Origin: Flavobacteriales bacterium
GTDB lineage: Bacteria > Bacteroidota > Bacteroidia > Palsa-965
Length of the DNA stretch: 59,255 bases
Assembly (NCBI GenBank): GCA_040377305.1
Contig: JBEIPA010000032.1
Coordinates: forward strand, 1-59,255
Reading direction: 5' to 3'
Shown in pieces: positions 7,149-21,547 of the stretch. The notes below the pieces were generated by a model. It did not search any database. It worked only from the letters and a program-made list of their open reading frames with translations, and had not been told where the DNA came from. Positions within the stretch are counted from its first letter, which is position 1. The number at the start of each line of letters is the position of its first letter. The position numbers and the translations under genes were made by a program.

Positions 7149-9137
7149 ATGAAAAAAATCATTACGTTATTTGCTACGGCAATGTTCCTGTCTGCTGGCA
7201 TCAATGCACAAAACAATGCTGGCCTTGGAACCACTACTCCAAATGCTTCTTCAATTCTTGAAATGCAGTCCACCACGCAAGGTGTGCTCGTTCCGCGAAT
7301 GACTGCGGTACAGCGTCTGGCTGTTCCCGTGAACGCAACTACTGAAGGTTTGTTGGTGTATGACCTGGATTCTCTCTGCTTCTTCTATTACAAAGTTTCA
7401 ACGGGGTGGACATCGCTTTGCAATTCAGGTGGTGGTACAGGACCAACTGGTCCTGCGGGTCCTCCAGGTGCGAACGGGTCTTCGGGAACAAACGGAATCT
7501 CGTGCTGGGATTTAAACTCTAACGGAGTGAACGATCCAGGAGAGGATATCAATAGCGATGGTAACTGGGATGGACTTGACTGTCAAGGTGCAGTTGGTGC
7601 GGCTGGTCCGGCCGGAGCGAACGGAACAAATGGAATTTCCTGCTGGGACTTGAACGGAAACGGTGTTCAGGATCCTGCTGAAGATATTAATACTGATGGT
7701 AACTGGAACGCTGCCGATTGTGCTGGTGCTACCGGAGCTACTGGTGCTGCTGGTGCACCGGGCGCGCCTGGTGTTGCTGGTCCTACCGGAGCTTCTGGAA
7801 TAAACGGAACGAATGGAGTAACAGGACCAACTGGTCCTATCGGTCCTACAGGTCCCACAGGGTTTGGTGTAGGCCCAACTGGTCCAACTGGTGCAAACGG
7901 AACTAACGGTGCAGCCGGTCCTGCGGGTCCTGCTGGTCCTGCCGGTGCTGCTGGTCCTACCGGCGCTGCTGGTGCTGCTGGCCCAATCGGTCCTGCTGGT
8001 CCTGCTGGTCCTGCTGGTCCTACCGGCGCTGCTGGTGCTGCTGGTCCTGTTGGTGCTGCTGGTCCTGCCGGTGCTGCTGGCGCAACGGGTCCTACCGGTC
8101 CAACGTGGACCATCACTTCAACGAATTACGATACAGATGGAAATTTGGTAATCAATACTTCCATACCATCTACAATCACTTCTACTAACCGCGCATGGAT
8201 ATTAGGTGGTAACGCTAATGCTGCGACTGAAAGTTTTGGTACAACCACTGCTCAGCATGTCGACCTCATATCCAACAATATTGTTCGTGGTCGTTTATCC
8301 AACGTTGGGGAGTTCTTTATCGGAACTACGGTAACTGCATTGGCTGGCGATTTGATGAACGGTGTAAGCAACGCAGCATTCCCTTGGGCTATCAATGGTT
8401 ATTCTAACCAAAATGGTAGCGGTGTTTATGGTTCTGTTACTGCGGGTGGTACTCAGTTCGGTGGAGTGCAAGGCGAGTATTTCGGTACTAACGCTATTGG
8501 TGCTGGTGTTCGCGGTATATGCGGTGCTGGAAATCAATTAGGAGTGAACGGACAAAACGTTGCAGTAACAACTGGTTGGTCAGGATTATTTCAGGGTGAT
8601 TTAGGATACACTGGATTCTTTGGTGTTGCCTCCGACGCTAAGCTCAAGAAAAACATTCAGACGATTGATAATCCAATGGGCATGATCATGCAAATGCGTG
8701 GCGTGACCTACGAGCACCGTCTGGATCAATATCCTGACCTTGGACTGAAGACAGGAACTAACTACGGATTCATTGCGCAGGAAATTGAAATTGTTGCACC
8801 CGATTTAGTGCGTACAAAGACTCTACCTCATATTAATTCAACCAATCGTGGTACTTCGAGTGCTCCAGGTGGTTCCAATGAAACAGTGAAAACCGTTAGC
8901 TACATTGAGGTTGTTCCGATTCTTTTGGAAGGAATCAAACAACAGCAGATGATGATCGATTCACTGAAAACTTCTGTGGAGGAACAACAAAAGAAAATTG
9001 AGCAACTTGAACAGCAAATTAGAATCGGTAATGGACAAGGGTACAATTCTCCTTCCCAGAGCCAACCTGACGCTGGCAATCCTGCACAAGCGGATAAGCC
9101 TGATCCACAACAAGTTGTAGTGGTTGACCCCAAATAG
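7149..9137 (+). CDS. Secreted collagen-like fibre protein with C-terminal Peptidase_S74-type intramolecular chaperone and coiled coil
   Basis: Signal peptide; '[18 protein letters not shown]' N-domain; Gly-X-Y runs interrupted by two CWDLNxNG...DINxDGxW...C motifs; '[12 protein letters not shown]...YGFIAQE...[18 protein letters not shown]'. Confidence 0.85.
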
Positions 9138-9155
9138 TTTTCACGTAAAATTTTC

Positions 9156-9187
9156 AATCCCGGCCCAATTAGCCGGGATTTGTTTTT
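9156..9187 (+). terminator. Rho-independent terminator between the two collagen-like genes
   Basis: AATCCCGGC-loop-GCCGGGATT followed by TGTTTTT. Confidence 0.7.
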
Positions 9188-9237
9188 GATCGAAAATGGG
9201 TTATTTTTGCTTCCTTCTGAACTTAGCATATTCCCCA

Positions 9238-11829
9238 ATGAGAAAACTATTACCCCTACTACTCGTGCTTGTCAGTATGACTCGCATTAGTTACGCGCAG
9301 AACAACGCAGGTCTTGGAACCACAACACCGAACGCTTCTTCCATTCTTGAAATGCAGTCCACCACGCAAGGTGTTCTCGTTCCACGAATGACGGCTGTTC
9401 AGCGTTTGGCTGTTCCGGTAAACGCAACAACTGAAGGCTTGTTGGTGTATGACCTCGATTCACTTTGCTTCTTCTACTATAAAGTTTCAACGGGCTGGAC
9501 ATCACTTTGCAATGCAGGTGGTGGTACTGGTCCAACTGGTCCTGCGGGTCCTGCAGGTGCTAACGGTACAGCAGGCGCTAACGGAACGAATGGATATAAC
9601 TGCTGGGATCTTAACGGTGACTTGGTTCAGGATCCAGGCGAAGACATAAACTCAGATGGCGTATGGGACGCACTCGATTGTCAAGGCGCTGCGGGTCCTG
9701 CGGGGGCTGCGGGTGCAAACGGAACAAATGGAATTTCCTGCTGGGACTTGAACGGAAACGGTGTACAGGATCCTGCTGAAGATATTAATACCGATGGTAA
9801 CTGGAATGCATTGGATTGTGTTGGAGCTACTGGTGCAACCGGGGCCGCAGGTGCACCTGGAGCCGCGGGTCCTACAGGTACTCCTGGTACCAACGGAACA
9901 AACGGTGTTACCGGGCCAACTGGTCCTACGGGTCCCACGGGATTTGGTGTAGGTCCAACGGGTCCAACGGGTGCTGCCGGTCCAACTGGCGCTCCTGGTG
10001 CTAACGGGGCAACTGGTGCTGCTGGTCCTGCGGGTCCTACCGGAGCTCCTGGTGCTGCGGGCCCTACCGGTGCTGCGGGTCCTGCTGGTCCAACTGGTGC
10101 TGCTGGCGGCGTAGGTCCAACTGGTGCTGCAGGTGCTGCGGGTCCTACTGGTGCTGCGGGTCCTGTAGGTCCAACTGGTGCTGCAGGTGCTGTGGGTCCA
10201 ACTGGTGCTGCGGGTGCTGTAGGTCCAACTGGTGCTGCAGGTGCTGCGGGTCCTACTGGTGCTCCAGGCGCTGCGGGTCCTACTGGTGCTGCGGGTCCTG
10301 TAGGTCCAACCGGCGCTGCAGGTGCAGTAGGTCCGACTGGTCCAACATGGACATTGTCTTCAGTAACTTACAATACGAATGGTACTGTTACAGTTAACGG
10401 AACAGCGGGTTCAGGTGGTCCAATCACTTCAACAAACGCTGCATGGTTGACTACTGGTAATACAGGAACTAACGTTGCAACAAATTACATCGGAACAAAC
10501 GATGCAAACTCATTCGGAATCAGAACCGGTGGCGCAGCTTTGACAAACGAACGAATGCGCATTCTTAATACTGGTGAAGCGCTTTACAATAGTCAGGCAC
10601 CTGCTGCCGGAGATGTATTTGGTGTTTATGGTACTGGATATCCGGGTGCAACCAACGCATTAGGTAACTATGCAATTAATGGATATGTTGCTGGGGGTGG
10701 TGCTGCGTTGTATGGACAAAACCTTGGAACCGGTGCTGGTGTATATGGTGATGTTGCAAACGCAGTTGCTCTTGGTGTTCTTGGTCAAAACCTTGCAGCA
10801 AACGGAACTGGTGTTTATGGTGGAACTGTAGGTGGTTCAGGTAACGGTGTATGGGGTGACTACCTCGGTGTGGCGGCTAACGGAACTGCAGTTCGCGGAC
10901 AATCGGTTCAGCCAGGTTCTGCAGGTACTGCAGTTGCCGGTTTCAGTGTTGGTACCGGTAACGGTGTATATGGAAGTAACTCTGGAACGGGTCTCGGTGT
11001 ATTCGGCGTAAGCACCGGAACTAATGCAGGTGTATGGGGTCAATCTACGACAGGTGCAGATGGAGTTATTGGATTCGTAAATACAAACGCTGCATTCGGT
11101 GTGTGGGCAATTAACCAAAATGCTTCAGGTACTGGTTTGGCAGCATCGGGTAACAACCGCACTACGATTTATCTTCCTACTGGCTCCGGAGCCGCATTCA
11201 CAGGTGCTGAAGTTGGTGTATTTGGATTTGCCCGAAACCCGGCATCTGGTACTGCAGGATTAAATGGTGGTGGTTATTTCCGCGATTCAATTACCGCACT
11301 GAACAATACTTACGCTTATGTTGCTGCATATAGTGCTGGTACTGCTTACAAAGTAATCGGTCCTGGTGCGGTATCTACAATTGTACAGGATGCCAGTGGA
11401 CAAGATCGCGTGATGTATTGCCCGGAAGCTCCAGAAGTTCTTTTCGAAGATTACGGAACTGGTCAACTTGTAAATGGTCAAGCTTACATTAACCTCGATC
11501 CAATTTTCGCATTGAACGTTAAGATTGATGAACAGCATCCGATGAAAGTTTTCATCCAGCTCGAAGGAGAATGCAATGGTGTTTATGTTGATCTGAAGAC
11601 TGCACAAGGATTCCAGGTGAGTGAACTTAACGGAGGAACTTCCAATGCTAAGTTCAGCTGGCACGTTGTCTGTAACCGTGCTGACACACCAGCGTCGAAG
11701 TTTGAAGACAACCGTTTCCCGGTGTTCAACAACACAATGGATGCAGGAAACAGCAGAGAAAATATTCAATTAGTCGATCCAAAAGTTGTTCCGCAAGCAA
11801 CACCGGAGCTTCCTAAGAAAGACAACTAA
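9238..11829 (+). CDS. Secreted collagen-like fibre protein with Gly-rich GVxG repeat head (paralogue of 7149..9137)
   Basis: Likely start ATG 9238 (MRKLLPLLL signal peptide). Same N-domain as the upstream paralogue, longer GPT/GAA run, 'GxGVYG' repeats, terminal '[21 protein letters not shown]' domain. Confidence 0.82.
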
Positions 11830-15955: not shown

Positions 15956-18900
15956 TGCTGACCTCCTTCTCCGTTACCACCACCATTTTCGAAGAGCTTC
16001 TGATCGTTCGGATCTCCAACAGGCAGAATAATTTCTTCCTGTCGCCGCTCTGCAGGATTTGATTGCGCATTTTCAATAGCCATGAGCTTATCTTTTGCGC
16101 GCTGTACATGCGACGGTGAATCACCATTCTCGATGTAACCATCCAGTACAATCTTCGCTCCGTTCGTGTCTTTCAGCGCGAGGTAATTATCGGCAAGCAG
16201 CAGCCAGCCTTCACCTGACCATTCCGGGAATCCATCATAGTCGTTGATGTGTTTAAGAATCGCAGTCTGCACGCCCTTCGAAGGTTTCGCTCTGAACTTG
16301 ATGTAGCAAACCTGATAGCTCGCTTCTGCGGCGTACACTGTATTTGGTGCAAGTCCATCGACTTTATTGAAGTAGGTCTCAGCACCCGTTAAATCACCGG
16401 CATTCAATGCGGCTTTTCCCTTCACGTAATTCGCTTCACCCTTCACGGAGTTTGCAATTCCGTTCAAGGTGAGAACCTGTGTTGCATACACGTTTGCCGA
16501 ATCAATATTCTTCGCGAACAAGTACGTGCGCATCGCGTTTACATTCGCATCATTCCGATCGTTCTCGTTCTTCGCTTCCCTTGCGAGTCGGGAATAAATA
16601 CGTGATGCATTGTTCCAGTCTTTGCGTGTGTAATAAATGTAACCTGCGCGCTTCATTGAAATATCGGAATACTTCGTCTGCCCTTTGGTGAGAATGTAGT
16701 TGTAGCTCGCCAGTGCATTTGTGGTATCGCCATTCTTGTATGAACATTCAGCACGCATGTAATATATCTCGGTGATGTAAACTCCTGAAGGATATTTCAG
16801 GATGTATTTATTCGCCTGTGCCAATGCTTCTCCGCAATTGCCGGCGTTGTACATTTTCGCTGCCTGCGCATACGAAGTTGAATCCGCAACAATCTGCGAC
16901 TCCGCATAACCCATGCTGCCCGCATACGTCTCCCACTGGTCCAGCTGATTTTTTGCGAGATAAATTTCCTTGATCTCCTTCATTACGGCACTGAAATCAC
17001 TTGTTCCTTTTCCACGCAAGAGCTGTGCTGCATCTTTATACATCGCGAGCGCATTTTCAGTATCACCTTTGATGCTGTAGATGGAAGCCATATTCGTAAG
17101 ACACGACACGGCAAACACTCCGGTCTTGTCGTCCATGTACACTTCATTGTACAATGACAACGCCTTATCGTAATCTTTCAGCTCGTGCAATGTGCGCGCT
17201 TCCTGGTACTTTGAATTTCCCTGCTTCACGTATCGCGATTCCGGATAATCAAGCCGCAGTTTTTTCAGAGCATCCGCTTTCTCCTGCTTCTTGCCGAGGT
17301 AACCATACGCCATTGCCTGTTGATACAAGGCGTAATCCTTGTTAAATCCGTATGGTGTTGGAGTAGCAACAGCCTTGCCGTAGAATTCTGAAGCGTTTAT
17401 AAATTCTTTCATGCGAAAATATCCATCGCCCATACAGAGGTATGCATCAAACACACGCTCATTCGGATCGTTCGCATTTTTGTTCGTCACATATTTCCGC
17501 AACCAGATAACCGCTTCTTCATACTTGTGCAATTCCATGTAGCAATACCCGATGTTGTAATTCGCAGTATTGTAGTTCGCAAGTACCGGAGCACCTGGTG
17601 TTACCTGAAATTTCTTGTAGCAGTCAATTGCTTTGTTGTAACCGGTAGAGTCAGTACGCTTCGCCTCCGCTTGCGCATACCAGCTTTCACCTTTCCAGTA
17701 TTGTGCCTGTGAATTCAATTCGCGACTAATCGGATACGTTAAGGATTTATCGAAGTGCGCAATTGCACCGGTGTAATCCGACTGATTGAACAATTCAATT
17801 CCACGGTTGAAAGCAACTTTCTGATATGTCGCCTGCATTGCGGGATTCAGAACTTTGATTTTCTCAATCGAAGAAAGTGCAAGTGCATAGTTTTTCGAAC
17901 TGAGATAAACATTCGTGAGCAGCATGTATGCTTCATCGCTGCGCGGGTTGTTCGGATATTCAGCGAGATACGCGTTCAACGCGACAATCGCTTCGTTGAA
18001 CGGACTGAATGAAAGCTCGTAGCTCAACTCTGCGTAGCTGAATAAAGCATCTTCGCGAATAATTGGATCGAACTTCATGGAAGAAGCTTTACCGAATGCC
18101 GTCCGCGCGTTTTGTTTGTCGCCATTACGCATGTGCGCGTCTGCGAGGTGATACCAGGCATTTTGTGCGAGTGCATCGGTGGAATCTCCGGCCGCAGCAG
18201 TCAGGTACGGAATGGACTGAGCCATCGAATCCGATTTGTAGTAGGAGAAGCCCAGTTCGTACGATTCCTGACGCGAGAGTGAGCTTACTTTGTCAGAATG
18301 CTTAAGCAAGAACGGAATTGCTTCCTGGTAGCGATTTAATCGGTAGTAAGATGCACCAATGATGTGCGCGATTTCCGGAACTTTTTTTGTGTCGGATGAA
18401 TCGAGCAAAGGTGGAGCGAAGGAAATTACGAGTTCATATTTACCCTGCAGGTAATAAATCTGAGCGATGTACCACGGCATGAGCGGACCGAAAACCGGAT
18501 CTTCCTGTAACCTGAGGAATCCATTGATTGCGGTTTCGTAGTTGCCTTCCGTATAGGCGATGTGCGAGTAATAATAGTTCGCCGCCGGAGAATACTTCGA
18601 TTTGATTTCGCGGATCTCAAAGAAATCTTTCTTCGCAGAATCGATGTGACCGATCTGGTAATGTGCGTAGCCGCGCTTGAAATAGTATTCTGAAAGTTCT
18701 TCGTCGCTCAGATCATAAATTTCTACCTGACGAAACCAAAGCAAGGCTTCATCGTAGTCTTTCTTCCGATAGTTATAACGTCCGAGCTGGAAGTTCACCA
18801 GGCGGCAACGTGGACTTTCCGGATGATGCGAAAGAAAGGCTTTGAGTCGCACTTCTGCGTCTTTGTGGAATAATTCCATTGCGCAGATCGCTGCGTAGTA

Positions 18901-19122
18901 TTCTGCGTCGGTAACCAGAAGATCGTTCTGATTTTTCGCCGACGCTACAATTCCGTCAAACACATCCTGTGCTTCCGCGTACTTCTGCTTCTCAAATAAT
19001 TCCAGTCCCTGACGGAACTCGTAATCAGGCGCAACTAAGTCCTGGGAACGTTGAGCGAATGTCGCTGATGGAGCGAGCAGTGAGAGTAGACCACAAAACA
19101 GGATTATCCTGTACACACCCAT
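15952..19122 (-). CDS. Large exported tetratricopeptide-repeat protein
   Basis: Signal peptide; numerous TPR-like helical pairs (YYxGxxYY...A...F) over 1056 aa. Confidence 0.88.
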   Translation of the reverse strand: MGVYRIILFCGLLSLLAPSATFAQRSQDLVAPDYEFRQGLELFEKQKYAEAQDVFDGIVASAKNQNDLLVTDAEYYAAICAMELFHKDAEVRLKAFLSHHPESPRCRLVNFQLGRYNYRKKDYDEALLWFRQVEIYDLSDEELSEYYFKRGYAHYQIGHIDSAKKDFFEIREIKSKYSPAANYYYSHIAYTEGNYETAINGFLRLQEDPVFGPLMPWYIAQIYYLQGKYELVISFAPPLLDSSDTKKVPEIAHIIGASYYRLNRYQEAIPFLLKHSDKVSSLSRQESYELGFSYYKSDSMAQSIPYLTAAAGDSTDALAQNAWYHLADAHMRNGDKQNARTAFGKASSMKFDPIIREDALFSYAELSYELSFSPFNEAIVALNAYLAEYPNNPRSDEAYMLLTNVYLSSKNYALALSSIEKIKVLNPAMQATYQKVAFNRGIELFNQSDYTGAIAHFDKSLTYPISRELNSQAQYWKGESWYAQAEAKRTDSTGYNKAIDCYKKFQVTPGAPVLANYNTANYNIGYCYMELHKYEEAVIWLRKYVTNKNANDPNERVFDAYLCMGDGYFRMKEFINASEFYGKAVATPTPYGFNKDYALYQQAMAYGYLGKKQEKADALKKLRLDYPESRYVKQGNSKYQEARTLHELKDYDKALSLYNEVYMDDKTGVFAVSCLTNMASIYSIKGDTENALAMYKDAAQLLRGKGTSDFSAVMKEIKEIYLAKNQLDQWETYAGSMGYAESQIVADSTSYAQAAKMYNAGNCGEALAQANKYILKYPSGVYITEIYYMRAECSYKNGDTTNALASYNYILTKGQTKYSDISMKRAGYIYYTRKDWNNASRIYSRLAREAKNENDRNDANVNAMRTYLFAKNIDSANVYATQVLTLNGIANSVKGEANYVKGKAALNAGDLTGAETYFNKVDGLAPNTVYAAEASYQVCYIKFRAKPSKGVQTAILKHINDYDGFPEWSGEGWLLLADNYLALKDTNGAKIVLDGYIENGDSPSHVQRAKDKLMAIENAQSNPAERRQEEIILPVGDPNDQKLFENGGGNGEGGQQ

Positions 19123-19233
19123 TGCAAAATAGTTTAGTCAATAAAGGTAGTAGGCGTGTATTCATGGCTGGAACTGCTATGTTCTACTTATCAACGGGAC
19201 CATGTTAAGATTATTGCACGCAAACCTCGAGCA

Positions 19234-19368
19234 AGTTGCAGCGGCAGTCGCAGCGGCAGTAAGTAGGCTGTAATCAGGCCGAATCAGCATTAATTTTTGT
19301 TAATCTCAGAATTTGACCTCGAACGTGTTGACTGTTTACTGACTGCAACTGCCGCTGCAACTGCGACT
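19234..19368. repeat. Inverted pair of GCAGYN hexamer tracts in the divergent TPR/ftsE intergenic region
   Basis: AGTTGCAGCGGCAGTCGCAGCGGCAGT (19234-19260) and complementary ACTGCAACTGCCGCTGCAACTGCGACT (to 19368). A 23-bp stretch (19336-19358) is identical to 27697-27719. Confidence 0.85.
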
Positions 19369-19389
19369 TTTTCTTTAGGTTTGTGCAAC

Positions 19390-20061
19390 ATGGAAAGCGA
19401 AACAATCATCTCTCTCGAAAAAGTATCGGTGTTTCAGAAACACAACATGGTGCTTAACAATGTGAACTTCACAGTATCGAAAGGTGAGTTTGTTTACCTG
19501 CTTGGTAAAACCGGTAGCGGTAAAAGTTCTTTAATGAAAACGCTTTACTGCGATGTTCCTTTCAAAGAAGGTCGCGCGACGATTGCCGGCTACGACCTTG
19601 CAAACATTGCGAAGAAGGATGTACCCTATCTCCGCCGGAAGACCGGAATTATTTTTCAGGATTTTCAGTTGCTGTATGATCGGAGCGTGAACGAGAATTT
19701 GTTCTTCGTGATGGAAGCGACTGGCTGGAAAGACAAAGAGAAGATGAAAGATCGCGCGCAGGAAGTTTTGGACAAAGTTGGTCTTGCGACGAAAGGACAT
19801 AAAATTCCGCATGAACTTTCTGGCGGCGAGCAGCAGCGTGTCTCCATTGCGCGTGCGTTGATTAATCATCCGGAAGTAATTCTTGCTGATGAGCCGACAG
19901 GAAATCTGGATCCGGAGACTTCGGAGGAGATTATGAAACTGCTTACTGATATTTCGAAGACGGGAACTGCGGTTGTGATTGCGACACATGATATGCTGGT
20001 GGTGAATAAATTTCCTGCACGTACTCTGCGATGCGAGAATGGTGAGGTGACACAACTTTAG
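19390..20061 (+). CDS. ftsE: FtsE-like ABC ATP-binding protein
   Basis: GKTGSGKS, IIFQDFQLL, LSGGEQQRV, LADEPTGNLD, ATHD. Probable start ATG 19390, just after TAGGTTTG. No ftsX adjacent. Confidence 0.75.
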   Translation: MESETIISLEKVSVFQKHNMVLNNVNFTVSKGEFVYLLGKTGSGKSSLMKTLYCDVPFKEGRATIAGYDLANIAKKDVPYLRRKTGIIFQDFQLLYDRSVNENLFFVMEATGWKDKEKMKDRAQEVLDKVGLATKGHKIPHELSGGEQQRVSIARALINHPEVILADEPTGNLDPETSEEIMKLLTDISKTGTAVVIATHDMLVVNKFPARTLRCENGEVTQL

Positions 20062-20157
20062 GTTGCCTGCGGCGCTTTACACGGCGACACAGCGAAACGG
20101 AGCCCTTTGTTTTCTAAGTGTTTCCCACGAGAAACGGCGGATCGCAAAAGCGATCAT

Positions 20158-20219
20158 TGGTGAATAAATTTCCGGCGAGAACACTTCGCTGTGAAAACGG
20201 AGAAGTGACTCAGCTTTAG
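20158..20219 (+). pseudogene. Orphan duplicate of the last 19 codons plus stop of the ftsE-like gene, differing only synonymously
   Basis: 20160-20219 translates to VNKFPARTLRCENGEVTQL*, identical to 20002-20061. A 16-bp identical start (TGGTGAATAAATTTCC) is followed by 14 differences, all synonymous. Confidence 0.92.
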
Positions 20220-20224
20220 GAAAT

Positions 20225-20418
20225 GGAACGCGGATTTTGATGTTCGTGGCGTGCTAGTCGTTTCCTTCGGATGATACTAGTATATACTTCGAGAGGGTAT
20301 TGGATTTTATGAGATAAACTCAAACGTATCTCATGAGATCAAAATTCGCGAATTCTGTATTTACCACACACATCCGAGAACAGTAATAGAAAACAAAGGG
20401 CTTCAAAAGCCGCGTTCC
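20225..20418. repeat. ~194-bp nested palindromic intergenic element, copy A
   Basis: GGAACGCGG...CCGCGTTCC ends; TCGGATG...CATCCGA middle; ATGAGATA-AACTCAAACG-TATCTCAT centre. Homologous to 49508-49700 and 59098-59255. Confidence 0.92.
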
Positions 20419-20434
20419 CATTTCGCGTTCCCTT

Positions 20435-21547
20435 CTAAATCAATGCCAGAATCTTCTCGGCATTCTTGCGGTTCGAGAAACGTTCATCCAGAACAGATTT
20501 GCGTTTTACAATATCGGCTTGACTGAATTCAAGTTCCTGAATGGCTTGCAGTCCCACTCGCATGGAAGCCGCGTCTTCGTGAATGATGCAAAGCGATTCC
20601 AATCCTGTATTTGCAACCATTGTTGAATTCACGATGCAGTGCCGGCCGCGCATGAGTGCAGCGAGCAATTTCAGTTTGATTCCGGTTGCCTGGAAAGTTG
20701 GCAGAATATTTACGTGAGCAGATGAAATCAGTTCGTCGATTTCTGCTGTACTGATGTTGGACTTAAGTGTGATCCTGGACTTTCCGTTCACCGCCGCAGC
20801 AAGTTCTGCAGAAGGATTGTTCCCTGCGATCACGAGCGGATAATCAACTTCACTGAACACTTCATTCACCAGAAATAAAGCAGCCTGATTGTTCTCGCCC
20901 ACTTCCAGATTACCATGATAGAATGCGAACGATCCTTTGCCTTCGCGGATATTTACTTCTTCGTTGGAATGAAAGGCCATTACATGCTCGACATTCTTGT
21001 ATCGTGAAGAAAGCTCCTTGGCGTCAGCCGGTGAAATTGCAAGAACATGCTGTGCATCATGCAGCACCGATTCGAACTTCTCCAGTTTGTTTGCTTCGCG
21101 ACGGAAGTATTGTCGTTTGGACCACTTCTTCTCTACTCTTTCCAGCGCGCGGTAGTAATCGTGTTCGATGTTGTGTGTGCGGACAATCTTTTTTCGATTC
21201 TTCAATGAAGGATGTGAAACGTAAGCGCAACAGTGCAATCCCTCAAACAAAATTGGTGCATCATCGCTTTGCAGATTTTTCAACAGCTCATCCGCTCGAC
21301 GGGAATTCACAATGAAAGGTTCCGAAGAACAGAGTTGGAAAATGGAAGTCTTGCGTGAATAGTAAAAAACCTTCTTGCAATACTTTTCGAGTTCAGAAGA
21401 TTTTGCCCGACCGTAGTGAAAGCAGTGAAGTGTTATTTCTACTCCGAGTGCGTGGAGAGCTTTGATTTTATAAAACACGTCGATTACTCCACCGTAATTT
21501 GCGGGATAGGGGATGTCGAATGAGATGATATTTAGGTGCTTAGACAA
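20435..21547 (-). CDS. Glycosyltransferase (GT4-like)
   Basis: 'PYPANYGGVID', 'HNIEHDYY', 'TGIKLKLLAAL' GT-B features; TTG start. Confidence 0.8.
   Translation of the reverse strand: MSKHLNIISFDIPYPANYGGVIDVFYKIKALHALGVEITLHCFHYGRAKSSELEKYCKKVFYYSRKTSIFQLCSSEPFIVNSRRADELLKNLQSDDAPILFEGLHCCAYVSHPSLKNRKKIVRTHNIEHDYYRALERVEKKWSKRQYFRREANKLEKFESVLHDAQHVLAISPADAKELSSRYKNVEHVMAFHSNEEVNIREGKGSFAFYHGNLEVGENNQAALFLVNEVFSEVDYPLVIAGNNPSAELAAAVNGKSRITLKSNISTAEIDELISSAHVNILPTFQATGIKLKLLAALMRGRHCIVNSTMVANTGLESLCIIHEDAASMRVGLQAIQELEFSQADIVKRKSVLDERFSNRKNAEKILALI

What the first reader, a model, noticed from the sequence alone, without database searches (positions are those of the whole stretch)
20000..20219. 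The ftsE-like 3' end is duplicated as a synonymously diverged copy (integration-scar signature)
Seen: 20002-20061 and 20160-20219 both encode VNKFPARTLRCENGEVTQL*. After a 16-bp identical core (TGGTGAATAAATTTCC), 13 of the last 15 sense codons differ (14 nt), all synonymously. The ~97-nt spacer holds an 8-mer tract (ACACGGCG ACACAGCG AAACGGAG) and a GATCGC-AAAA-GCGATC hairpin. Established: elements integrating into coding genes restore them with their own copy of the 3' end. Inference: both tails evolved under selection in separate lineages and were joined recently by recombination at the core. The insert is only ~158 bp, has no integrase, and the orphan tail abuts palindromic element A.
Basis: partly seen in the sequence, partly recalled or inferred. 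Interest (0 to 1): 0.75.

Follow-up and report, generated by a model that had tools for sequence, protein, structure and literature searches.

The report
Displaced gene tail behind a repeat
The end of the ftsE-like gene is present twice, spelled with different codons either side of a small repeat element, and the same layout recurs at about fifteen genes of this genome; it is likely the footprint of imported DNA from relatives pushing the resident gene end downstream, not of an integrase-driven element.

Summary
Window 20002-20061 and 20160-20219 both encode VNKFPARTLRCENGEVTQL*. A 16-nt identical core is followed by 14 differences, all synonymous. Independent contigs of the source run support both junctions, and a wastewater relative carries the downstream junction.

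The two tails did evolve as coding sequence apart and were joined by recombination, but this is not an integrase scar.
- The 95-nt spacer is a complete copy of a repeat family (B) with at least 37 copies in the genome.
- There is no recombinase between 7 and 35 kb of the window.
- The layout (gene tail, stop, short hairpin repeat, orphan tail, stop) recurs at about 15 genes, including recG, asd, lepB, an rsmF-like gene and SpoIIE-type sensors.
- In 3 of 3 informative loci (recG, asd, one SpoIIE gene) the orphan matches the closest relative's single tail and downstream flank. The working tail end plus the repeat is therefore the insert.
- The sharp switch from identical to saturated divergence marks a recombination breakpoint.

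Best reading (about 0.5): silent C-terminal displacement, with one homologous and one illegitimate junction. For ftsE itself, which tail is resident is inferred by analogy. I rate it a new variant of a known kind, of moderate to high interest.

The parts
19390..20061 (+). ftsE-like ABC ATPase gene (223 aa), intact, ending in tail copy 1
Evidence: ORF. Pfam ABC_tran E=1.1e-34. Orthologues in 24 of 24 same-genus genomes drawn (tails).
20000..20015 (+). Core copy 1, TGGTGAATAAATTTCC, identical in both tail copies; the likely end of the homologous junction
20016..20061 (+). Tail end X (15 codons plus TAG), in use; inferred to be the imported part
   Evidence: Imported status is inferred by analogy with recG, asd and SpoIIE. 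Its last 27 nt differ at one base from metagenome contig L074.
20062..20156 (+). Complete copy of repeat family B (about 95 nt), with octamer tract 20079-20102 and terminal hairpin 20140-20155
   Evidence: about 40 matches in the genome; 37 copies that include the 5' end; hairpins at both ends with compensatory changes. No Rfam match at E<=1.
20158..20173 (+). Core copy 2
20174..20219 (+). Orphan tail end Y (15 codons plus TAG), not part of any plausible gene; inferred to be the displaced resident tail
   Evidence: A contig of run X2 (wastewater) covers 20138-20261 with 5 differences.
20217..20424 (.). Palindromic repeat family A (about 205 nt), between the orphan tail and the convergent gene
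   Evidence: dozens of matches in the genome. Relatives have the convergent gene directly after ftsE.
20435..21547 (-). Convergent glycosyltransferase-like gene; conserved neighbour of ftsE in relatives
   Evidence: Weak Pfam Glyco_transf_4 match, below the curated cut-off. Synteny.

Best explanation
The second ftsE tail is likely the resident gene end, displaced downstream when a short piece of DNA from a related lineage was inserted ahead of it. That piece carried the last 15 codons of the donor's ftsE, its stop codon and the B repeat that followed it. Shown: the duplication itself, its synonymous-only divergence, the sharp boundary after the 16-nt core, the spacer being a whole B copy, and the recurrence of the layout at about 15 genes. 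Also shown: at recG, asd and one SpoIIE gene the orphan is the resident tail. Inferred: the left junction is a homologous crossover ending in the core. The right junction is an illegitimate join of the fragment's end, which lies 0-18 nt past a stable hairpin in the 9 spacers I inspected, to resident DNA 16-45 nt upstream of the crossover. This duplicates that short resident stretch. It is the pattern of homology-facilitated illegitimate recombination, or C-terminal displacement, but here it is silent because the incoming tail encodes the same peptide. The gene stays intact; the orphan is a by-product with no function of its own.
For: 1. ftsE: 16 identical nt are followed by 14 synonymous differences in 45 nt.
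2. The spacer aligns end to end with other B copies.
3. Recurrence: 26 forward hits against 4 control hits. I judged 15 of the 26 to be real genes; 9 of these were confirmed by Pfam.
4. recG: the orphan is 83% identical to the closest relative G015, the working tail 68%, and the two tails 66% to each other over 126 nt.
5. asd: G015 has a single tail ...LVANKLI* followed by a B-like element, which matches G000's orphan and its flank. By my hand count there are 2 differences in the last 24 nt against 9 for the working tail. The working tail's residues L..V are those of other species.
6. SpoIIE gene on C10: G015's tail end and downstream flank match the orphan and its flank.
7. asd, SpoIIE and ftsE all show an identical 5' part and a saturated 3' part.
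8. 4 of 37 B copies and 3 of 54 copies of a second hairpin family have such flanking tail repeats. The repeats therefore usually sit after stop codons without any duplication, as they would in a donor.
9. The recG array has a hybrid middle copy, which shows that recombination between the tail types does occur.
10. A wild relative shares the recG working tail at 98% and the ftsE B/orphan junction.
11. The mechanism has been proposed for T6SS effector arrays and for Rhs loci (PMC5361080, passages read).
Against: For ftsE itself the direction is not shown. Both tails are about equally far from the closest available orthologue, L074 (10 differences each in 45 nt, my hand count), and G015's ftsE 3' end is missing from its assembly. 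No donor carrying an X-type tail next to a B copy was found in 35 genomes of the order or in 8 metagenome contigs. recG has no identical core. In the rsmF-like gene the working tail departs from a stretch that is nearly invariant in 5 relatives, including at synonymous sites, which is odd for a donor from this genus. Some pairs are identical or nearly so (33/33 and 48/49 nt) and need only a local duplication. According to the paper read, illegitimate recombination of this kind is orders of magnitude rarer than ordinary recombination (PMC5361080), so about 15 cases in one genome call for an added factor. Competence for DNA uptake was not examined. In 727 kb of G015 no genuine case was found; about 2 would be expected at G000's density, so this is uninformative.
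Confidence: 0.5

Rival explanations
1. Two steps. First, a local duplication of the gene end arose when the repeat inserted or by slippage at its hairpin, giving identical copies. Later, ordinary homologous recombination with DNA from a relative replaced the working copy only.
For: Identical or near-identical pairs exist (33/33 nt on C11, 48/49 nt on C10). Tandem [tail+repeat] units exist (C50, two units; recG). One orphan, on C48, shows neutral decay with a stop codon and replacements. Divergence between pairs runs in a continuum from 100% to 66% identity.
Against: The replacing tract would have to end within the last codons of the working tail or inside the repeat, which requires homology there. 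At asd the repeat after the working tail differs in its 5' start from the B-like element after the orphan and after G015's tail, so the two are not simple duplicates.
Confidence: 0.2
2. The repeats themselves do it. B and the other hairpin elements are non-autonomous ssDNA transposons (IS200/IS605-like or REP-like) that sometimes excise with a piece of the upstream gene end. They then re-insert at the equivalent position of the same gene in the same or another genome.
For: B has small hairpins at both ends with compensatory changes and no terminal inverted repeats. B copies often start right after TA, so that the element's first G completes a TAG. The genome has 10 PF01797 (Y1 transposase) matches, 7 of them at 72-96 bits. 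The inserts end just past a hairpin.
Against: None of the 7 Y1 genes inspected has an A, B or H copy within 900 nt. The spacers belong to several unrelated families and one is unique. No shared target motif is visible at the left edges of the duplications. Only 4 of 37 B copies carry tail repeats.
Confidence: 0.13
3. Scar of a site-specific integrative element: attL carries the element's own tail, attR the host's, and the cargo and integrase were later deleted.
For: An identical 16-nt core flanks the insert. The layout equals that of e14 in icd with the icdC fragment (PMC13626634).
Against: No integrase in the insert or between 7 and 35 kb. The spacer is exactly one whole B copy plus 2 nt, which leaves no room for arm remnants. 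About 15 loci have spacers of 34-139 nt, which random deletions would not give. recG has no core.
Confidence: 0.07
4. Functional design: the orphan tail and hairpin form a 3' regulatory switch in which the hairpin arm pairs either with the real tail or with its copy.
For: In the SpoIIE-type genes the 3' arm of the spacer hairpin overlaps the first codons of the orphan, so its 5' arm is also complementary to the real tail (by eye). Six paralogues show the layout.
Against: No such complementarity was seen in the ftsE spacer (one search lists none between B and either tail). The closest relative lacks the arrangement at recG, at the SpoIIE gene and at 3 other loci. The orphans carry a frameshift (asd), a stop (C48) and replacements.
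Confidence: 0.05
5. Assembly artefact that joins two strains.
For: None found.
Against: Contigs built separately from the source run cover both junctions with 0 differences at single-copy depth. The same holds for recG, where the repeated unit shows doubled depth. A contig from another study's run carries the B/orphan/A junction.
Confidence: 0.02

Closest known systems
C-terminal displacement in Rhs, CDI and T6SS effector loci, proposed to run by homology-facilitated illegitimate recombination (Jackson et al. 2009, as cited in PMC5361080; Kirchberger et al. 2017, PMC5361080, passages read)
   Same: Incoming DNA is anchored by homology in the conserved upstream part of the gene. The new 3' end plus its downstream DNA is inserted, and the old 3' end is pushed downstream and kept as an orphan. 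Repeated events build arrays, as at recG here.
   Different: In those systems the new end encodes a different toxin with its immunity gene and is selected for. Here the new end encodes the same peptide, the cargo is a 34-139-nt repeat, the targets are housekeeping genes, and no benefit is evident.
e14 prophage in icd of E. coli K-12, with the icdC fragment (Hill et al. 1989, as cited in PMC13626634; passages of PMC13626634 read)
   Same: The working gene end belongs to the insert. The host's own end lies downstream as a fragment that differs mostly at synonymous sites.
   Different: e14 is 15 kb, encodes its integrase and excises. Here the insert is 158 bp with no recombinase, and about 15 loci are affected.
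Partial C-terminal duplications of atp6 and cob next to homing-endonuclease ORFs in fungal mitochondria (PMC6279837, one passage read; the Allomyces atp6 hybrid gene is recalled, not read)
   Same: A foreign gene end is fused in frame and the resident end is left downstream.
   Different: An endonuclease ORF lies between the copies there; none lies between them here.
REP/BIME elements and MITEs (PMC2817692, search listing and abstract only)
   Same: The spacers are short, dispersed, hairpin-bearing intergenic repeats. Y1 transposase genes are present in the genome.
   Different: I did not find in the papers searched that these elements are known to be flanked by recoded copies of a gene end.

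Membership tests
Integrative element att scar (tyrosine or serine integrase type) | Recombinase gene inside or beside the insert | tested here: not met
   The insert is 158 bp. Pfam scans of the 16 ORFs between 7 and 35 kb found no recombinase.
Integrative element att scar (tyrosine or serine integrase type) | Identical core sequence at both junctions | tested here: met
   The 16-nt TGGTGAATAAATTTCC occurs at both junctions. No such core exists at recG.
Integrative element att scar (tyrosine or serine integrase type) | Cargo or arm sequences of an element between the cores | tested here: not met
   Between the cores lie only the tail end, one whole B repeat and 2 nt.
C-terminal displacement by homology-facilitated illegitimate recombination | Resident 3' end retained downstream of an incoming 3' end | tested here: met
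   The orphan is the resident tail at recG, asd and SpoIIE. For ftsE this is inferred by analogy.
C-terminal displacement by homology-facilitated illegitimate recombination | One homologous junction and one non-homologous junction | tested here: met
   The reading frame is seamless at the left. At the right the repeat abuts resident DNA with no homology.
C-terminal displacement by homology-facilitated illegitimate recombination | Foreign origin of the incoming piece, with a donor identified | tested here: inconclusive
   Divergence and residue states point to another lineage. No donor was found in 35 genomes of the order or in 8 metagenome contigs.
C-terminal displacement by homology-facilitated illegitimate recombination | Route of DNA entry (competence or conjugation) | not tested
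   No search for competence genes was made.
Transposon or MITE with target-site duplication | Duplication of fixed length, identical at birth, flanking an element with defined ends | tested here: not met
   The duplicated stretches range from about 33 to 123 nt and the spacers belong to different families. 33 of 37 B copies have no flanking repeat.
Diversity-generating retroelement (template and variable repeats) | Differences confined to adenines of one copy | tested here: not met
   The 14 differences involve all four bases in both copies. A reverse transcriptase was not searched for.
Homing-endonuclease-linked C-terminal duplication | Endonuclease ORF between the copies | tested here: not met
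   No ORF fits in the 97-nt spacer.

The most novel reading that the evidence does not exclude
The small hairpin repeats of this lineage spread as 'tail cassettes'. Each cassette is a repeat plus the last codons of the gene it sits behind, and it uses that gene end as a homing arm to enter the same essential gene in other genomes. The recoded tail keeps the host gene intact and also protects the insert from being lost by recombination with the displaced resident tail. That would be a new way for non-autonomous elements to parasitise the 3' ends of housekeeping genes.
Probability: 0.15. Interest if true: 0.85.

Novelty: new variant of a known kind. Interest (0 to 1): 0.6.

Why it matters
Orphan, recoded gene ends are normally read as marks of prophages and islands, or of toxin diversification. 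Here the same mark appears at about fifteen ordinary genes of one genome (ftsE, recG, asd, lepB and others), with inserts of only 34-139 nt of repeat DNA. If the reading holds, these sites are natural footprints of one-sided, illegitimate recombination with diverged relatives. That process is known mainly from laboratory transformation experiments. The sites would then give a way to count such events, to date them, and to ask whether hairpin repeats promote them or ride on them. They also warn annotators that a recoded 3' duplication is not by itself evidence of an integrative element.

Tried and rejected
- Rfam on 18900-20700 found no family at E<=1.
- DGR-type mutagenesis was rejected: the changes are not adenine-specific.
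- Read-through or bypass joining the two tails was rejected: the spacings 158 and 131 are out of frame and the in-frame recG spacer holds a stop.
- Gradual in-place divergence was rejected for ftsE, asd and the SpoIIE gene because of the abrupt boundary. It was rejected for recG because, by three-point arithmetic (distances 43, 40 and 21), the working tail would carry 31 of 126 changed sites against 12 for the orphan.
- A sliding-window search for a donor tract inside ftsE had no resolution. The same search in recG showed a drop only over the last ~60 codons.
- A scan of 727 kb of G015 found 0 genuine cases; this is uninformative.
- Link of Y1 transposase genes to the repeats: none within 900 nt.
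- Runs X3 and X9 and other small-share runs gave only conserved ABC-motif matches. X2 gave no cover over 19958-20051 or over the recG orphans, which proves nothing.
- The scan's earlier notes hold nothing on this repeat or on duplicated tails in this genome.
I did not repeat it and give hand counts instead.
- PMC122325 (Prudhomme et al. 2002) is not held, so whether laboratory events include duplications rather than deletions was not checked.

Full report
**What is there.** The window is contig C44 of a 5.18-Mb genome in 60 contigs. An intact ABC-ATPase gene of the ftsE type runs from 19390 to 20061 (Pfam ABC_tran). Its last 19 codons and stop (20002-20061) recur at 20160-20219 and encode the same peptide, VNKFPARTLRCENGEVTQL*. 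The two copies share TGGTGAATAAATTTCC (20000-20015 and 20158-20173). They then differ at 14 of 45 nt, always synonymously. Outside the core, 12 of 14 degenerate codons differ, against 9.0 expected at full saturation under this genome's codon usage. Real ftsE orthologues differ at 0.40-0.58 of such codons. All 13 changed codons lie in the last 15 of 19, which by my hypergeometric arithmetic has a probability of about 0.004 under an even spread. The divergence therefore begins abruptly, as at a recombination breakpoint.

**Is it real?** Contigs built independently from the source run (X1) cover 19300-20090 and 20073-20332 without a difference. None skips the 158 bp. A 168-nt contig from a wastewater run of another study (X2) covers 20138-20261 with 5 differences. 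That stretch is the end of the repeat, the orphan tail and the start of the next repeat. Another X2 contig covers 19390-19773 at 98%. A close wild relative therefore has the same downstream junction. Contigs cannot exclude a rare excised form.

**The spacer.**
- The 95 nt between the tails (20062-20156) are a whole copy of a dispersed repeat that I call B. About 40 matches lie in the genome, 24 of them were aligned end to end, and 37 include the 5' end.
- B has a conserved 5' part, a variable middle and a terminal hairpin GATCGC-N4-GCGATC. The small hairpins at both ends show compensatory changes.
- No Rfam family matches at E<=1.
- The orphan tail is followed by a second, roughly 205-nt palindromic repeat, A.
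- In relatives the convergent glycosyltransferase-like gene follows ftsE directly.

**No integrase.** No recombinase was found in the 16 neighbouring ORFs scanned between 7 and 35 kb. They include gyrB, a TPR protein, glycosyltransferases, murB, aroA and aroB.

**The same layout elsewhere in the genome.**
- An exact-peptide scan and a Smith-Waterman scan of the last 45 residues of 6,992 ORFs against the 450 nt downstream were run.
- 26 hits passed the filter on the forward strand: the match reaches the end of the tail, is followed by a stop, and is not inside a long ORF. The reverse-complement control gave 4.
- I set 11 of the 26 aside by eye as out-of-frame or antisense ORFs of repeat proteins, or as the antisense of the recG array.
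- The other 15 lie in long genes. Nine were confirmed by Pfam: ftsE-like, recG, a DUF4835 protein, a TPR-SpoIIE sensor, asd, signal peptidase I, an RsmB/F-type methyltransferase, an HI0933-like flavoprotein and an ECF sigma factor.
- Six were not scanned. Five of these have SpoIIE-like ends; the sixth is an 813-aa ORF.
- accC shows a partial case outside the filter.
- The spacers are 34-139 nt. They comprise B (ftsE, asd, lepB and a tandem pair on C50), a short hairpin family TTGTCAGACYGAGC...GACAA (3 of 54 strict matches), a hairpin shared by the SpoIIE-type genes, octamer-repeat DNA (recG) and one unique palindrome.
- Identity between the two tails runs from 33/33 and 48/49 nt down to 66%.

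**Which tail is the resident one?** G015 is the closest genome sampled (79-87% nt identity at these genes).
- recG: G015 has a single tail. G000's most downstream orphan is 83% identical to it and the working tail 68%; the two G000 tails are 66% alike. The working tail uses codons typical of this genome, whereas the orphan and G015 share an unusual G-ending bias. The middle copy of the recG array is a hybrid of the two types.
- asd: G015's single tail (...LVANKLI*) and the B-like element after it correspond to G000's orphan and its flank. By my hand count there are 2 differences in the last 24 nt, against 9 for the working tail. The working tail's residues (L..V) are those of other species of the genus. 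A resident stretch of about 45 nt stands on both sides of the insert, and the orphan side carries a 4-nt frameshift.
- SpoIIE gene on C10: G015's tail end and downstream flank match the orphan and its flank, and G015 has no insert.
- In 3 of 3 informative loci, then, the orphan is the resident end and the working end plus the repeat is the insert.
- ftsE, the DUF4835 gene and the rsmF-like gene are uninformative. For ftsE, G015's 3' end is not in its assembly. The closest orthologue found, metagenome contig L074 (94.6% aa, single tail ending TQL*), resembles the orphan in its first half and the working tail in its last 27 nt.
- Among the 27 genomes of the genus and the 35 of the order, only G000 has two matches to the tail pattern.

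**How it most likely arose.** The differences between the tails are overwhelmingly synonymous or conservative, so both evolved as coding sequence. The orphan cannot have done so where it now lies. The boundary between identical and saturated sequence is sharp. The incoming piece always ends 0-18 nt past a stable hairpin in the 9 spacers I inspected. These repeats usually sit just after stop codons without any duplication: 33 of 37 B copies do so, and G015 has a B copy straight after the stop of the DUF4835 gene.

I therefore infer the following sequence of events. DNA from a related lineage, carrying the gene end and the repeat behind it, paired with the resident gene. It crossed over within the conserved tail. 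Its far end, trimmed back to or cut at the hairpin, was then joined illegitimately a few dozen bases upstream of the crossover. That join duplicated the short resident stretch and pushed the resident end downstream.

This is the scheme proposed for T6SS effector arrays and Rhs loci under the names homology-facilitated illegitimate recombination and C-terminal displacement (PMC5361080, passages read). It gives the same picture as e14 in icd with its icdC fragment (PMC13626634, passages read) and as endonuclease-linked C-terminal duplications in fungal mitochondria (PMC6279837, one passage read). What differs here is that the displacement is silent, the cargo is tiny, the targets are housekeeping genes and the events are many.

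**What speaks against it, and the rivals.**
- No donor was found.
- The paper read calls this kind of recombination very rare, so about 15 events need an added factor.
- Some pairs are identical and need only a local duplication.
- The rsmF-like working tail departs from a stretch that is nearly invariant in 5 relatives.
- A two-step route (local duplication, then ordinary replacement of the working copy) remains possible.
- So does an active role of the repeats, for instance through the Y1 transposases of which the genome has 10 matches. However, none of the 7 inspected lies beside a repeat.
- An integrase scar, a regulatory design and an artefact are unlikely, for the reasons given under the rivals.

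**Literature.** I found no description of recoded gene-end duplications beside REP-like or MITE-like repeats (listings and abstracts only). These searches cover open-access text only. Earlier notes of this scan on the same genome describe octamer-armed intergenic palindromes (e1-725776), which agrees with what I saw in the spacers. They also describe an integron-like cassette array (e1-4554573), which I did not test against these hairpins.

**Verdict.** The feature is one instance of a recurrent, silent displacement of gene ends in this genome. I rate it a new variant of a known kind, with interest 0.6.

Noticed in passing
G000 contig C11:142400-142856 (locus L041:1100-1557): recG ends in an array of three tail copies in 165-nt units. 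The working tail is followed by two orphan copies, each behind a 42-nt octamer-repeat spacer. The middle copy is a hybrid of the two sequence types. The repeated unit shows doubled depth in the source run's contigs.
   Followed up: yes
window 20062-20156 and about 40 other places in G000: Repeat family B is about 95 nt long. It has a conserved 5' part, a variable middle and small hairpins at both ends with compensatory changes. Copies are often arranged in inverted pairs and often start right after TA, so that the element's first G completes a TAG stop. It is also present in G015 and G007.
   Followed up: partly
G000, 54 strict matches, for example C10:100811 and C51:13968: A short hairpin family (TTGTCAGACYGAGC...GACAA, 31-60 nt) lies in intergenic DNA, sometimes in inverted pairs. 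Three copies sit between a gene tail and its orphan copy.
   Followed up: partly
G000 C10 (minus strand), C11 (two genes), C26, C21, C50: Six SpoIIE/PP2C-type sensor paralogues each have an orphan copy of their ...DDVxVxGxRx* end behind a related hairpin spacer. The 3' arm of that hairpin overlaps the first codons of the orphan, so its 5' arm is also complementary to the real tail.
   Followed up: partly
G000 C51:13925-13966 and orthologues in G015, G013, G014, G007 and G010: The last codons of the rsmF-like gene are nearly invariant at the nucleotide level in five relatives, synonymous sites included. G000's working tail departs from them at six positions, while its orphan keeps them.
   Followed up: no
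G000 C8:16381, C19:335, C1:655, C43:12128, C4:46567, C38:2472, C46:1073: There are seven strong and three weak matches to the Y1 (IS200-like or REP-associated) transposase family PF01797. Several lie near contig ends. None of the seven strong ones has an A, B or H repeat within 900 nt.
   Followed up: partly
window 19234-19368: A 20-nt inverted repeat made of GCAGCGGCAGT-type units brackets the region just upstream of the ftsE start.
   Followed up: no
window 20101-20116 and 20387-20402: A perfect 16-nt inverted repeat links the B copy to the far end of the A repeat and brackets the orphan tail. The end of A seems to contain an inverted B fragment.
   Followed up: no
window 7149-11826: Two large ORFs contain collagen-like triple-helix repeats. 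One also has an endosialidase-chaperone (Peptidase_S74) domain.
   Followed up: no
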